Positions 46,174-52,509 of a DNA stretch of 64,000 nucleotides are shown here, one piece after another. Both the position numbers and the translations under genes were made by a program. The stretch spans positions 327,113,988 through 327,177,987 of the forward strand of contig NC_133617.1 of NCBI RefSeq assembly GCF_048593235.1, read 5' to 3'. Origin of the DNA: Sminthopsis crassicaudata. Its lineage: Eukaryota. The notes beneath the pieces are model-generated. The model made no database searches. It saw only the letters and a program-made list of their open reading frames with translations, and was not told the DNA's origin. Within the stretch, counting starts at the first letter, position 1, and the number at the start of each line of letters is the position of its first letter.

Positions 46174-47054
46174 GTCTCTTTCCAATTTACCCAATTAGCT
46201 GTATTGCTTTGATGATATCACAGCACCTATGCCTCAGTTTCTCATTTTCAGTATGCGATGGTTTAGATCTTGCCAATAATTTTTTTCTAGCCACAAGGTT
46301 TTGTTTTTTGTTTGCAAATGATTTTTCTAAATTGAATTTTAGTTTCCTAAACCTGTTTCAATAACCATCTGTAACATTAAATAATTATTTCCTTACAAGG
46401 AAGTCAGGTGTTACTGTTGAATCATGAAGAAATCTGTTATGTTATGACATTCTGGGTTTCCTACGATTTTGAGAATAGTTTGATAATTATTATGAAAGTG
46501 GTAAACATCTTGATTGTTGGAGGAGGGAGCATACAATAAGTATGGATTCTGAAAGAATTAGATTGACAGTTGTTAGAATTTTAAGTTGGCCAGCAAATGA
46601 CTTAAAATCACATTTGGAAAGGAAACTAGTTTCCTGCTTTCTCTTTCTTCTCATTCCCCAGGAAAATCCACATTTGTCAAGAACTGAAAAAATTTTGGGA
46701 ACTATTCCTTTTAATTGTAGTTCACTCATGCTTTGCTTCATATACAAAAATGAAAGTGGAGAATTGATATAATTGTTTAGATAATCCTTACCTGAGATTT
46801 TTAAATTATTCAAGCAAAATATTTTATCTACTTAAATAATCTGGATAACTTTCATAGTTCTGTACGTATGTATGAGGTTATAGCTTATGTGATTAGTAAA
46901 GATAAATTAAATATGAGAGAATTTTTTCAATTGAATGCAAAATATAAAAGTTAAAAAGAAAAGAGACAAATTGCTAATAGAATCTGAATAGAACTTTAAA
47001 AAATTCCTAAACAAATCATGGTTGAAATATAAATTTTTCAAATTTGGTAGAATT

Positions 47055-47190
47055 TGAATAGGTTCTTACTAAGTGTTAAGTCTGTACTTAACAATTCTCT
47101 AGTTCCGGCCTTTGAAGGGAGTTTTACCCTTTTGAACTTCTGGGGAGGAGCTTGTATGCTTAGGAGGAGCAAGTTCATAGGTTGAAGTAG
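47055..47190 (+). mobile_element. Truncated 5' LTR (U3 part) of a class II ERV
   Basis: About 130 nt aligning to 48057-48187 of the full LTR with about 16 differences; probable TG start at 47055. Confidence 0.85.
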
Positions 47191-47719
47191 CCACAAGAAA
47201 TAAAAACAGATAATGGACCTGCATATAGTTCTAAACATTTCACACACTTTTGTGCACAGTATAAGATTTTACACACCACTGGAATACCTTTTAATCCGCA
47301 AGATCAGGCAATAGTAGAGAGAAGAAATAGGGACATTAAGACTCTCCTCCAAAAACAAAAGAAAGGGGGAGCCACAGGTAGCCCTAGAGAACTTCTAAAT
47401 TTAGTTCTCTATACCATTAATTTTCTAATTTTTCACAAAGATGCACTGGCTCCGGCAGACAGGTTTTTACAACCCACCAGAAGGGCAGTGTCCAGTGCAA
47501 GCAGCTCCACTGTCCTTAGATAATCACCAGGTCATGTGGAGAGACCCATAAAGTGGTGAATGGAAGGGACCAGATAGGTTAACTGCCTGGGGGAGAGGGT
47601 TTGCTTGTATTTCTTCAGATGGAGAAGGAATCAGATGGGTGCCAACGAGTTATATTCGCCTTGTCCATCAGAGAGAGACAGAAAAAGAGAAAGACCTCAA
47701 AACAAAGGAGAAAATCTAA
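47191..47719 (+). pseudogene. pol: Class II (betaretrovirus-like) ERV integrase relic, core plus C-terminal domain
   Basis: Translates PQEIKTDNGPAYSSKHF...HTTGIPFNPQDQAIVERRNRDIKTLLQKQKKGG...LNLVLYTINFL; 1-nt frameshift in the T run at 47464-47468; then QVMWRDP*SGEWKGPDRLTAWGRGFACIS (stop at 47549-47551). TDNG, IVER and WGRGFAC are HERV-K/MMTV-like motifs. Confidence 0.93.
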
Positions 47720-48000
47720 GAAACATCTGACACTGAAATAGCATGGCTAATGAAGACTGTTAAAGAACTTTAATACCAGCAGGAATCATTGGATTTCCTA
47801 ACACAAGATGAGACTAATGGACAATGGACTTATGGACATGTATAAATTCTCAATTTATGATTATTTGATCATGTTATTTGTTACATACTTCTAGCATGTA
47901 CTATGTTACTATGTTACTATGTGTTTATGTAATTATGTGTAATGACTCCCATATTGATGCATTTATGTTTCAAGGTCATGACCACCCTATGTTCTAAATC

Positions 48001-48370
48001 AAAAGAAAGGGGGAGATGTTAGGTTCTTACTAAGTGCTAATGAGATAATGAGATATTAGGTTCTTACTAAGTGCTAAGAGAGTACTTAACAATTCTCTAG
48101 TTCCAGCCTTTAAAGAGAGTTTTACCCCTTTGAACTTCGGGGGAGGAGCTTAATGTTTAAGAGGGGCAAGTTCATTGGTTGAAGTATTTTTTCCCAGAAG
48201 CCTCTGAGTTATTCCATGCCCATTCTCTGGGAGGATAAAAGAGGGCAGCTCTCTGGAGGAAAAAAAAGTCTCTGCTTTAGGTCAGAGTTGGCGGCCAAGA
48301 GATTGAGTTGAGACAGCAGATCTCCTCCCAGAGAGTGATCGGCAGTCTCTGGAGGCAACAGGACTTTACA
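48001..48370 (+). mobile_element. Polypurine tract (48001-48016) and complete 3' LTR (48017-48370)
   Basis: aaaagaaagggggaga directly followed by TGTT...TACA; exact 22-bp internal repeat at 48019-48040 and 48056-48077. Confidence 0.9.
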
Positions 48371-51153
48371 CTACCAAACATTTAAGGTACAATTAGCCCC
48401 AATGTTATATACATTATTGAAAAAAATAGGGAATGAAGGAGTCCTACCAAATTCCTTTTATGACACAGACATAGTACTGATATACCTAAACCAGGTAGGT
48501 TGAAAACTGAGAAAGAAAAACTATAGGACCAATCTCCTTACGAATATTGATGCTAAAATCTTAAATAAATTATTAGCAAAAAAACTACAGAAAATCATCC
48601 CCAGGATAATACACCATGATCAAATAGGATTTATACCAGGAATGCAGGGCTGGTTTAATATTAGGAAAACTATTAGTATAATTGACCATATTAGTAATCA
48701 AATTAACAAGAACTATATGATCATCTCAATAAATGCAGAAAAAGCATTTGATAAAATACAACACCCATTCCTACTAAAAACACTTGAGAGTATAGGAATA
48801 AATGGACTATTTCTTAAAATAGTCAGGGGCATATATTTAAAACCATCAGTATCATAACTGGGATAAACTGGAACCTTTTCCAGTAAGATCAGGAGTGAAA
48901 TAAGGTTGCCCACTATCACCATTACTATTCAATATTGTATTAGAAATGCTAGCCTCAGCAATAAGAGTTGAGAAAGAGATTAAAGGAATTAGAGTAGGTA
49001 ATGGGGAAACCAAACTATCACTTTTTGTAGATGATATAATGATATACTTAGAGAACCCCAAAGACTCTGCTAAAAAGCTATTAGAAATAATCCACAACTT
49101 TAGCAAAGTTGCAGGATACAAAATAAATCCACATAAATCCTCAGCATTTTTATGCATCACCAACAAAATCCAACAGCAAGAGATAAAAGAAATTCCATTC
49201 AAAATAACTGTCGATAATATAAAATATTTGGGAATCCATCTACAAAAGGAAAGTCAGGAATTAAAAGAACAAAATTACAAAACACTTGCCACAAAAATAA
49301 AGTCAGATTTAAATAATTGGAAAGACATTAAGTGCTCTTGAATAGGCCAAGCAAATATAATAAAGATGACAATACTCCTTAAACTAATGTATTTATTTAG
49401 TGCTATACCAATCAGACTCCCAAGAAACTATTTTAATGACCTAGAAAAAATAACAACAAAATTCATATGGAAGAACAAAAGGTCAAGAATTTCAAAGGAA
49501 TTAATGAAAAAAAAATCAAATGAAGGTGGCCTAGCTGTATCTGATCTAAAACTATATTACAAAGCAGCAGTTACCAAAACCATTTGGTATTGGCTAAGAA
49601 ATAGACTAGTTGATCAGTGGAATAGGTTAGGTTCACAGGACAAAAGAATGAACAACTATAGCAATCTAGTGTTTGACAAACCCAAAGATCCCAACTTTTG
49701 GGATAAGAATTCATTCTTTGACAAAATCTGCTGGGAAAACTGGAAATTAGTATGGCAGAAAGTAGGCATGGATGCACACTTAACAACACATACCAAGATA
49801 AGATCAAAATGAGTCCATGACTTAGCCATAAAGAACGAGATCATAAATAAATTAGAGAACCATAGGATAGTTTACCTCTCAGACTTGTGGAAGAGGAAAG
49901 AATTTGTGACCAAAGGAGAACTAGAGATCATTCTTGATCACAAAATAGAAAATTTTGATTACATCAAATTAAAGAGCTTTTTTTTACAAACAAAACTAAT
50001 GCAAACAAGATTAGAAGGGAAGTAACAAATTGAGAAAATATTTTTACAGTTAAAGGTTCTGATAAAGGCCTCATTTCCAAAATATATAGTGAACTGCCTC
50101 TAATTTGTAAGAAATCAAGTCATTCTCCAATTGATAAATGGTCAAAAGATATGAACAGACAATTTTCAGATGATGAAATTGAAACGATTTCCACTCATAT
50201 GAAAGAGTGTTCCAAATCACTATTGCTCAGAGAAATGCAAATTAAGACAACTCTGAGATACCACTACACACCTGGCAGATTGGCTAAGATGATGGGAAAA
50301 AATAATGATAAATGTTGGAGGGGCTGTGGGAAAACTGGAACACTGATACATTGTTGGTGGAGTTCTGAAAGAATCCAACCATTCTGGAGAGCAATTTGGA
50401 ATTATGCCCAAAAAGTTCTCAAACTGTGCATACCTTTTGATCTAGCAGTGCTACTACTGGGCTTATATCCCAAAGAAATACTTAAGAAGGGAAAGGGACC
50501 TGTATGTGCAAGAATATTTGTTGCAGCCCTTTTTGTAGTGGCTAGAAACTGGAAAATGGATGGATGCCCATTAATTGGAGAATGGTTGGGTAAATTATGG
50601 TATATGAATGCTATGGAATATTGTTGTTCTGTAAGAAATGACCAGCAGGATGAATACAGAGAGTTTTGGAGAGACTTACATGAACTTATGCTGAGTGAAA
50701 TGAGCAGAACCAGGAGATCATTGTGCACTTCCACAACAATAATGTATGAGGATGTATTCTGATAGAAATGGATATCTTCAACAAAGAGAAGATCTAATTC
50801 AGTTCCAATTGATCACTGATGGACAGAATCAGCTACACCCAGAGAAGGAACACTGGGAAATGAATATAAACTGCATTTTTTGGTTTTTCTTCCCAGGTTA
50901 TTTTACCTTCTGAATCCAATTCTTCCTGTGCAACAAGAAATTCGGTTTTGCACACATATATTGTATCTAGGATATACTATAACACACTTAACATGTATGG
51001 GCCTGCCTGCCATCTAGGGGAGGGGGTGGAGAGAAGGAGGGAAAAATCAGAATAGATGTGAGTGCAAAAGATAATGTTGTAAAAAATTACCCATGCATAT
51101 GAACTGTCAAAAAAGTTATAATTATAAAATTAATTTTCAAAATGTAAAAAAAA
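48371..51153 (+). mobile_element. 5'-truncated, inactivated L1 (ORF2 RT to C-terminus, 3' UTR, A tail)
   Basis: ORF pieces MQGWFNIRK..., LFVDDIMIYL (FADD changed to FVDD), CWRGCGKTGTLIHCWW, ending MYEDVF* at 50762; several stops and frameshifts; G-rich 3' UTR; 16-bp TSD at 47024-47039 / 51154-51169. Confidence 0.97.
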
Positions 51154-52509
51154 GAAACATAAATTTTTCTCATGTCAAGAAAGATTAATTTTTCATCTTT
51201 TCCTCTGAAGTGGCAAACAACATAATAAAATCATAAATTTCAATCTTCATAGAAATTTATGAGTCTATGAAATTTGTCATGATGCAATAGACACTTTTTA
51301 AGTCCTTGGGGAAAAGAACAGCAAAATATACAGATCACTGGGACCATAAAGACCAAATTCTTCATACTAACCTTATTACAGAGTTGAATAAAGAAATTAA
51401 AGGAGGACTTAGACTTATTATTGTATTTAAGGACATGCAATTTGAATTATCTTAGTCTCCAAAATCAGAAAATTGCTTCCATGCAGAAGCCTACAATTAC
51501 TTTGAAATGGCCAGGGATTAAGAATGTATTATTGAGTAAGTCTGCAACAAACAGTACTTTTGCTTCCTTTGGCATATATTTTTATCACTATCTTTAAAGG
51601 AGGATTTTGAAACATGCCATTTTGATCAAATGTAATGGGCAGCACAATTTCTTGAAGTCATTAGAGCCTTTTGTTGAACCTATGTTTAAATTCATGTCCC
51701 ACTTCAGTAAGAGTCTATATCATATTTAAATAAGTTAAAATGGAGATAAATAGCCATATTATTTCCTTCTTTGATAATAAAAATAAGTGGAAACAAAAAA
51801 GGTGTTTAATTAAAATGGATAATTCTGTACTTTAATATGGTAGATTTTTTACTTCTTGAAAGTAATTGAAAATTACTCTAAGCAGTAAGATCTAATTCCT
51901 TTGAACATTTCTCTTAAAATTGGCCAGTATAGCACATCCATTCATTCAACAAGCATTTATCAAATTTCTACCATGTGAATAGTATGGTGCATGGTGCTAA
52001 AAGTTGGCATAGAGAGTAAGGGGAAATAGCGTTCAAAAATGATTGGCATAGCTCTGTTATCAAACAGGTTATAGTCTCAGTAGGAAAATAAGAGGTAGGT
52101 GGCATGATGAAAAGCAAATTTTAATTAAGAGTCAGAAGACTTTTATTCATATCCCAGCTTTTACCCTTACCAGCTATATGATCATGGACAATTTTATTCT
52201 TGCTCTGAAGCCTCAATAACCTCAATATGAAATGGCAGCAATATATAGAAAGTGCTTATTTAATCTTAAAATGCTCTATAAATATCGATCCTTTGGTTGC
52301 TCTAGTCACCCAAGCTCCCCAAATTTGACTCTATGTCTCTGTCTGTCCATTTGTCTCCTTCTCTTTCTGTCTCTCTGTCTCTGTCTCTGTTCCTCGTTTC
52401 CTAACTCTTTCCCTTTCTCCCCAGTCTCTCTTTTTCTCTCTGTCATTTCCTCTCTTTTTCTTCCCCACTCCCTATATTTATTGACAATATAATTTGTTGA
52501 CAAATTCTG

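What the first reader, a model, noticed from the sequence alone, without database searches (positions are those of the whole stretch)
47024..51169. ERV remnant and L1 enclosed together by one 16-bp L1-type target-site duplication
Seen: gaaatataaatttttc (47024-47039, preceded by TT, giving a TT/GAAA L1-endonuclease-type site) recurs as gaaacataaatttttc (51154-51169) right after the L1 A tail, 15/16 identical. Between them lie 15 nt, then the ERV piece (47055-48370), then L1 ORF2 starting at the base after the LTR's terminal CA. Known: L1 TPRT makes 7-20-bp TSDs at TT/AAAA-like sites, while class II ERV integrase makes about 6-bp TSDs. No 6-bp TSD flanks this ERV (agaatt vs ctacca). Inference: the 4.1-kb LTR-IN-LTR-L1 unit may have entered in one event, either as a read-through chimeric RNA or by capture of retroviral cDNA at the unresolved 5' end of an L1 insertion. 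If repeated elsewhere it would be a composite element in which L1 carries an ERV integrase fragment and LTR promoter.
Basis: partly seen in the sequence, partly recalled or inferred. Interest (0 to 1): 0.7.

Follow-up and report, generated by a model that had tools for sequence, protein, structure and literature searches.

The report
Retrovirus scrap lodged in L1 hairpin
A broken piece of a marsupial retrovirus-like element sits exactly at the loop edge of a short palindrome at the start of a dead LINE-1 copy, most likely because it was inserted there after the LINE-1 arrived, and it occurs once in the genome, so it is a one-off fossil and not a new composite mobile element.

Summary
The 16-bp duplication, the precise LTR 3' end and the missing 6-bp ERV duplication are real. 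Spacer and L1 start together make a perfect 20-bp palindrome, and the ERV sits at the edge of its 4-nt loop with no base lost or duplicated. The two LTR parts carry different LTR haplotypes, so they come from two templates. Both internal junctions are unique in the genome, so there is no composite family, and the spacer's sequence argues against a read-through RNA. Two related species lack the ERV here and probably have an empty site. The same ERV family often nests in L1, and its 'U3 piece to pol' deletion shape recurs with ordinary 6-bp duplications. Best reading (0.55): L1 first, then integration at the hairpin with an irregular left end. Capture during one L1 insertion stays open (0.3), because the ages cannot be separated and no L1-only allele was seen. 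The scan's earlier notes hold no such finding.

The parts
47024..47039 (+). Left copy of the 16-bp L1-type target-site duplication; bottom-strand cut site of the TTTC/AA type
   Evidence: the endonuclease consensus is recalled
47040..47054 (-). 15-nt inverted L1 piece. Its reverse complement matches the L1 sequence spanning the breakpoint (4 bases upstream, 8 downstream). 47043-47050 is the left stem arm and 47051-47054 the loop of a palindrome completed by 48371-48378
   Evidence: exact match of 12 nt or more in 25 of 29 L1 copies, 0 of 20000 random flank 15-mers; palindrome and fold
47055..47058 (+). 4 irregular bases: filler, or a damaged or truncated LTR start
   Evidence: family matches begin at 47058-47059; start unique in the genome; origin not resolved
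47059..47189 (+). U3 piece of an LTR, of a different haplotype from the 3' LTR; stops before the TATA-like motif; no primer binding site follows
   Evidence: 14 of 130 differences against the 3' LTR; haplotype test
47190..47719 (+). 3' part of a class II integrase gene, broken: lacks the first two-thirds of the core profile and changes frame
   Evidence: Pfam rve positions 67-102 of 102, below the cut-off; best PDB match E 2.6e-20; ORFs
47720..48016 (+). Short non-coding ERV stretch without env, ending in the polypurine tract (48001-48016)
48017..48370 (+). Complete 3' LTR, TG...CA, TATA-like motif at 48235-48240
48371..51153 (+). 5'-truncated L1: ORF2 remnant with stops and frameshifts (stop at 50760-50762), 3' UTR and short A tail
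   Evidence: Pfam RVT_1
51154..51169 (+). Right copy of the 16-bp target-site duplication

Best explanation
A one-off nested insertion: an L1 with a 16-bp target-site duplication likely landed first and carried a short fold-back at its 5' end, and a defective, two-template ERV DNA was likely integrated later at the loop edge of the resulting palindrome. Step 1 (the structure is shown, the mechanism inferred): L1 inserted by target-primed reverse transcription, and twin priming or snap-back at L1's own GAATTC site made a palindrome of at least 20 bp just inside the left duplication. Step 2 (inferred): integrase joined the LTR's terminal CA to the first base of the right stem arm. Step 3 (inferred): the left end was closed irregularly. 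Either only one end was integrated and host repair joined the other, or a normal 6-bp duplication formed and its left copy, being a hairpin arm, was later deleted with the first LTR bases. The ERV piece itself likely arose as a recombinant cDNA of two family members. The locus has no intact reading frame and left no daughter copies.
For: Seamless join: the left host side ends on the L1 base just before the base on which the right side starts, giving a perfect 20-bp palindrome with the ERV at the 3' edge of a 4-nt loop. Independent cDNA ends would seldom do this (inference). The same palindrome exists without any ERV inside an older continuous L1 elsewhere in the genome (1 locus). The CA end is exact, as integrase makes it (established knowledge). 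This family nests in L1 often: L1 within 30 nt of the LTR end at 13 loci among 77 ends examined, duplicates included; two cases checked had L1 continuing on both sides. The 'U3 piece, deletion, pol, LTR' shape recurs in 3 of 20 fetched family loci with ordinary 6-bp duplications (6/6, 5/6, 5/6), so it needs no L1. Three-point non-CpG branch lengths make the L1 older: 3.7% (20 copies) and 5.8% (29 copies) against 2.1% for the ERV. Literature: integrase prefers sites next to cruciform loops in vitro (Katz 1998 as cited in PMC3279379, passages); one-ended integrations have one normal end and a truncated end joined to extra viral or inverted host DNA (PMC5041404, passages); short inverted repeats break at the loop tip with partial arm loss (PMC12872147, passages).
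Against: No L1-only allele was seen: species B and D lack the ERV and look empty, and the second sample of species A has the composite left junction. Rare-letter ages do not differ: ERV 16 of 766; L1 34 of 1359, 23 of 774 and 5 of 208; Fisher p 0.33-0.79. The three-point excess may be subfamily divergence. The model needs the ERV to hit one spot in a 2.8-kb L1, and no second LTR was found at this L1 site, so there is no sign of a hotspot. The hairpin is weak (8-bp stem, -5.8 kcal/mol), shorter than the 29-bp repeat in PMC12872147. In the three other U3-piece elements the piece matches its own 3' LTR better (5/91, 2/80, 3/56) than here (14/130).
Confidence: 0.55

Rival explanations
1. One event. 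L1 twin priming left two unjoined cDNA ends, and ERV DNA was built in between them before closure: ORF2p jumped from L1 RNA onto the 3' CA end of an integrase-processed ERV cDNA and then onto a second LTR template, or end joining captured the pieces.
For: One L1-type duplication encloses everything. The ERV lies exactly at the inversion junction, which needs no positional coincidence in this model. The duplication's 3' end matches the L1 template at 7 of 8 bases near the priming point (read). There are two LTR haplotypes and no 6-bp duplication. Ages are not separable. Precedents: twin-primed insertions with extra cDNA at the internal junction (PMC11702581, section 7 read); ORF2p template jumping and use of DNA templates in vitro (PMC10830420, passages); tripartite LINE chimeras (PMC2104539, abstract).
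Against: It does not explain the seamless palindromic fit of the two host-side ends. Templated insertions in tumours are mostly under 250 bp and local (bioRxiv 10.1101/2024.08.27.596794, passages), whereas this insert is 1.3 kb. The deleted shape recurs in ordinary integrase-made copies. Three-point distances favour an older L1.
Confidence: 0.3
2. The L1 palindrome formed first and later broke at its loop, and host end joining, without integrase strand transfer, patched the break with ERV cDNA pieces.
For: The break position is at the loop edge, with no duplication and 4 irregular bases at the left join. Short inverted repeats are break-prone (PMC12872147, passages).
Against: The right join keeps the exact terminal CA with no loss on either side, which is simpler for integrase. 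The hairpin is short.
Confidence: 0.08
3. A read-through LTR-into-L1 RNA from a donor locus was retrotransposed; a composite family may exist.
For: The LTR and L1 have the same orientation. None of the 29 LTRs examined has AATAAA, so read-through is plausible.
Against: Each junction occurs once in the genome at up to 1 mismatch, and a looser LTR-end pattern found only this locus and one non-LTR chance match. The inverted spacer continues into L1's upstream bases, not into the LTR end. None of the 24 LTRs closest to the 3' LTR has this L1 flank.
Confidence: 0.04
4. Chance 16-mer or assembly mis-join.
For: The sequence is AT-rich, with a third 14/16 copy at 51179. The two internal junctions are not shown bridged in the listed contigs, and the table is cut.
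Against: The chance rate is about 4 in 3000 before counting the position right after the A tail. The spacer ties the left flank to the L1 start 1.3 kb away. A contig from a second sample bridges 46732-47088 with no substitutions.
Confidence: 0.03

Closest known systems
Aberrant one-ended retroviral integration (ASLV, HIV-1; PMC5041404, passages)
   Same: One exact CA junction; the other end truncated, joined to further viral sequence, with no standard duplication and inverted host sequence beside it.
   Different: A fixed germline fossil of an endogenous class II element, not a drug- or mutant-induced event in culture. The inverted piece here is probably older than the ERV and made by L1.
5'-inverted (twin-primed) L1 insertions with extra templates (PMC11702581, section 7; PMC2912911 and bioRxiv 10.1101/2024.08.27.596794, passages)
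   Same: Discrete 16-bp duplication; an inverted piece next to it; breakpoints overlapping by about 8-13 nt; foreign sequence at the inversion junction.
   Different: The inverted piece is only 12-15 nt. The insert is 1.3 kb of ERV ending at the exact LTR terminus, a DNA-type end.
U6/L1 and other RNA/LINE chimeras (PMC13174262, passages; PMC2104539, abstract)
   Same: Non-L1 sequence 5' of a truncated L1, in the same orientation, inside one duplication.
   Different: Those are copies of RNAs, often recurrent. Here the partner ends in U5, which a standard ERV RNA 3' end lacks (recalled), and the junction is unique. PMC13174262 has no occurrence of 'ERV' in its main text.
SVA-type composite retrotransposons (PMC2912911, passage)
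   Same: ERV-derived LTR sequence inside an L1-type duplication.
   Different: SVA is a multi-copy family. This unit has one copy.
MEBrv 3, the env-less beta-like ERV of dasyurids (PMC11334065, abstract and passages)
   Same: Class II integrase, no env ORF between pol and the 3' LTR, thousands of candidate copies, related integrase sequence in three other species.
   Different: Not compared by sequence. Copies here span about 6.1 kb with 306-445-nt LTRs, against 7.3 kb and 469 nt. This LTR has no cover in species B, C or D.

Membership tests
L1 TPRT insertion | 7-20-bp target-site duplication at an endonuclease-type site | tested here: met
   15/16 match, TTTC/AA-type site; sister copies 12-20 bp
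L1 TPRT insertion | 3' UTR and A tail before the right duplication | tested here: met
L1 TPRT insertion | Empty orthologous site with one copy of the target | tested here: inconclusive
   Species B and D contigs match to 47036 and run on 1235 and 1233 unlike letters at single-copy depth, which would end in the TC repeat at 52330-52390 if the site is empty; the letters were not shown
5'-inverted L1 (twin priming or fold-back) | Inverted L1 piece next to the duplication, breakpoints close together | tested here: met
5'-inverted L1 (twin priming or fold-back) | Microhomology at the priming point | tested here: inconclusive
   7 of 8 match, but 3-nt and 2-nt gaps are needed to bring it into register (read)
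Normal concerted class II ERV integration | 6-bp duplication on both sides | tested here: not met
   absent here; present in 5 of 7 and 13 of 22 family copies
Normal concerted class II ERV integration | Two LTRs copied from one template | tested here: not met
   14/130 differences against 1-8 in 7 pairs (Fisher p 1.7e-4 on the U3 part, binomial p 0.009 against the whole-LTR rate); two linked sites discordant here and concordant in 7 of 7 pairs
One-ended (aberrant) integration | One exact CA end, other end irregular | tested here: met
One-ended (aberrant) integration | Target existed before the ERV (L1-only allele) | not testable with these tools
   no such allele among four runs laid; no close-relative genomes available
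Composite retrotransposon family (SVA-like) | Several dispersed copies sharing the junctions | tested here: not met
   1 match each in 3.24 Gb; one search added no LTR copy
MEBrv 3 | Beta-like pol and no env ORF | tested here: met
   about 300 nt between the integrase stop and the 3' LTR. That the top PDB entries are MMTV integrase is recalled
MEBrv 3 | RT phylogeny within the clade | not tested
   no RT in this fragment and no reference sequence at hand

The most novel reading that the evidence does not exclude
A germline fossil of L1 ORF2p jumping from its own RNA onto the integrase-trimmed CA end of a retroviral cDNA during a twin-primed insertion, then onto a second LTR: direct splicing of two retroelement life cycles in one nucleus, and a route by which an LTR promoter can be fused to L1.
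Probability: 0.25. Interest if true: 0.5.

Novelty: new member of a known kind. Interest (0 to 1): 0.24.

Why it matters
Under the best reading it matters little: it is one dead nested insertion, though a neat natural example of an ERV at a hairpin loop edge with an irregular end, so far described mainly in vitro and in culture. It also warns that a shared target-site duplication does not prove a single event. If the single-event reading holds, it would show L1 machinery using retroviral cDNA as a template in the germline, a possible first step towards SVA-like composites.

Tried and rejected
Composite family or donor locus: junction searches found only this locus. A special LTR subfamily starting with the irregular 5' end: one exact match only. 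L010/L072 as donor (its flank begins like the L1): a different LTR subtype. Microhomology between the LTR end and the similar L1 9-mer 8 nt upstream of the breakpoint: a join there would have kept the 8 bases, which are absent. Hotspot for ERV insertion at this L1 site: no second case. Age test: two methods disagree in strength, so it does not decide. Fold-backs at sister L1 5' ends: of 29 copies, 23 had the 5' alignment start inside the locus; one gave a 14-nt match that is an (AT)n artefact and the other 22 gave at most 8 nt. The second palindrome hit, L174, is not in L1. Reads were laid only on 46174-48590, so the L1 body and right flank were not checked against other species; species C had patchy cover. 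Expression was not tested. Literature searches for ERV-L1 chimeras of this form (listings and abstract starts only) showed none, but the library lacks most subscription papers, and the supplements of PMC11702581 (Figs S7-S10) were not seen. The scan's notes gave 2 unrelated hits in this genome and 0 by words.
Full report
Observation. The two 16-mers are at 47024-47039 and 51154-51169 and differ at one base. They are the only places in the window within one mismatch; a third with two mismatches lies at 51179. A random window 16-mer finds such a match in a random 5 kb in 4 of up to 3000 draws. The left copy follows TT and the right follows the L1's short A tail. Of 29 sister L1 copies, 14 show 12-20-bp duplications abutting the 5' end. 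I take the duplication as real. The window lies in a 3.24-Gb, 8-contig genome.

Anatomy. Inside the duplication lie, in order: 15 nt (47040-47054); 4 irregular bases; a U3 piece (47059-47189); a broken integrase 3' part (47190-47719; Pfam rve positions 67-102 of 102; best PDB match E 2.6e-20); about 300 nt without env, ending in a polypurine tract; a whole LTR (48017-48370); and a 5'-truncated L1 with stops and frameshifts. The 22 of 29 family copies that align through the LTR end lose similarity at 48370, so the CA end is exact. The family normally makes 6-bp duplications (5 of 7 two-LTR copies; 13 of 22 LTRs without PPT or PBS). This copy has none.

The 15 nt are the reverse complement of the L1 sequence that spans the L1 start. 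An exact match of 12 nt or more occurs in 25 of 29 L1 copies and in 0 of 20000 random flank 15-mers. The match runs four bases upstream of the breakpoint into L1's own sequence, not into the LTR end, so its template was not an LTR-L1 read-through RNA. Read side by side, 47043-47054 and 48371-48378 form a perfect 20-bp palindrome (8-bp stem, 4-nt loop, -5.8 kcal/mol), and the ERV sits at the 3' edge of the loop with no L1 base lost or repeated. The same palindrome occurs once more in the genome inside an older, continuous L1 with no ERV, so this L1 site can fold back by itself. It is uncommon: none of 22 informative sister 5' ends had one.

Two ERV templates. The U3 piece differs from the 3' LTR at 14 of 130 sites; LTR pairs of 7 proviruses differ at 1-8 over the same part (Fisher p 1.7e-4, and binomial p 0.009 against the whole-LTR rate). 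Two linked sites split 77 LTR copies into two haplotypes (37 and 28; 12 mixed or other; p 3e-10). Both LTRs agree at these sites in 7 of 7 proviruses, but the window has one haplotype in each part. Whether the left end is a damaged single-repeat LTR start or a truncation cannot be told.

No family. The U3-piece/integrase and LTR/L1 junctions each occur once at up to one mismatch. A looser pattern added one hit that is not an LTR.

Other species. Reads were laid on 46174-48590 only. Single-copy contigs of species B and D match the left flank to 47036 (64 and 63 differences in about 850 bases) and then run on for 1235 and 1233 letters unlike the stretch. If the site is empty, that length ends in the TC repeat at 52330-52390, a natural contig break; the letters were not shown, so this is inference. 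The U3-piece bin and the three inner LTR bins have zero depth in B, C and D, so this LTR family is younger than the split. A contig of a second sample of species A bridges 46732-47088 with no substitutions and 5 gap letters of unknown place, so the left junction is not a mis-join. The other two junctions are not among the listed bridging records. No L1-only allele was seen; only 15 of 162 joints were listed.

Order of events. Three-point non-CpG branch lengths are 2.1% for the ERV part and 3.7% and 5.8% for two L1 parts, which favours an older L1 but includes subfamily changes. Counting only rare letters gives 2.1% against 2.4-3.0%, not different (p 0.33-0.79). Base rates favour nesting: L1 lies within 30 nt of the LTR end at 13 loci among 77 ends (duplicates included), and two that I checked are ordinary proviruses inside a continuous L1, one of them among the 29 closest L1 copies. 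The 'U3 piece, deletion, pol, LTR' shape occurs in 3 of 20 fetched loci with 6-bp duplications, and a fourth has an inverted LTR with a perfect 6-bp duplication. So this family regularly integrates rearranged DNAs without L1.

Mechanism. I favour L1 first (0.55). The L1 closed its 5' end as a palindrome. Integrase then joined the CA end beside the loop, where it prefers to act on cruciforms in vitro (Katz 1998 as cited in PMC3279379, passages). The left end was either joined by host repair, as in one-ended integrations with truncated ends and extra viral or inverted host pieces (PMC5041404, passages), or its 6-bp duplication was later lost at the hairpin, as short inverted repeats lose an arm (PMC12872147, passages). 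All mechanistic steps are inferred. The main rival (0.3) is capture in one L1 event: twin-primed insertions can take up extra cDNAs at the internal junction (PMC11702581, section 7 and passages), and ORF2p jumps templates and copies DNA (PMC10830420, passages). It explains the position for free but not the seamless palindrome. These odds are judgement, not computation.

Comparison. It works like an aberrant nested ERV insertion into a 5'-inverted L1. It fails the tests for normal concerted integration and for a composite family. The ERV resembles the env-less MEBrv 3 clade (PMC11334065, abstract and passages), but membership was not tested by sequence. Searches listed no report of this exact architecture; the library is incomplete, and PMC13174262 (passages) surveys RNA partners, not ERVs.

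Verdict. Real, single-copy, dead; a new member of known kinds. Interest 0.24. The boldest reading left open, ORF2p jumping onto an integrase-trimmed retroviral cDNA, has probability about 0.25 and would merit about 0.5.

Noticed in passing
L074:~6637-9217, L075:~7606-9195, L083:~7414-9209 (oriented coordinates): Three of 20 family loci are short elements with only 57-93 nt of the 5' LTR joined to internal sequence, no primer site, yet flanked by 6-bp duplications; either defective cDNAs were integrated or the deletion recurs.
   Followed up: partly
L068:~7444-9187 (oriented; G000:C6 near 50.51 Mb): An element with an inverted LTR, then an integrase piece, then an LTR, flanked by a perfect 6-bp duplication: two U5 ends were used for integration. 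It resembles the mirror-image element of note e1-9002883, but the join is at the U3 start.
   Followed up: partly
LTRs of L002-L030: None of 29 LTRs has AATAAA; most have only ATAAAA about 218 nt in, which may serve as both TATA box and polyadenylation signal. The R-U5 part varies widely in length.
   Followed up: no
L169:1501-1520 (G000:C4:46099224): An older continuous L1 carries a perfect 24-bp palindrome at the same ORF2 site, suggesting templated perfecting of a native quasi-palindrome.
   Followed up: partly
window 47065-47145 and 48118-48360: This LTR has zero cover in three related species at 80% likeness while the integrase region is abundant in all: a lineage-specific LTR on a shared internal region.
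   Followed up: no
L008/L070, 3' end: The 3' LTR is followed directly by a primer binding site, as in a tandem provirus.
   Followed up: no
L166:445-1441 (G000:C3 near 70.093 Mb): About 20 nt after an LTR end lie an inverted L1 piece, a forward L1 3' end with tail and another inverted L1 piece; a complex L1 cluster.
   Followed up: no
window 48361-48370 against L1 copies: The LTR's last 10 bases resemble an L1 9-mer that lies 8 nt upstream of the breakpoint in L1 copies; probably chance.
   Followed up: partly
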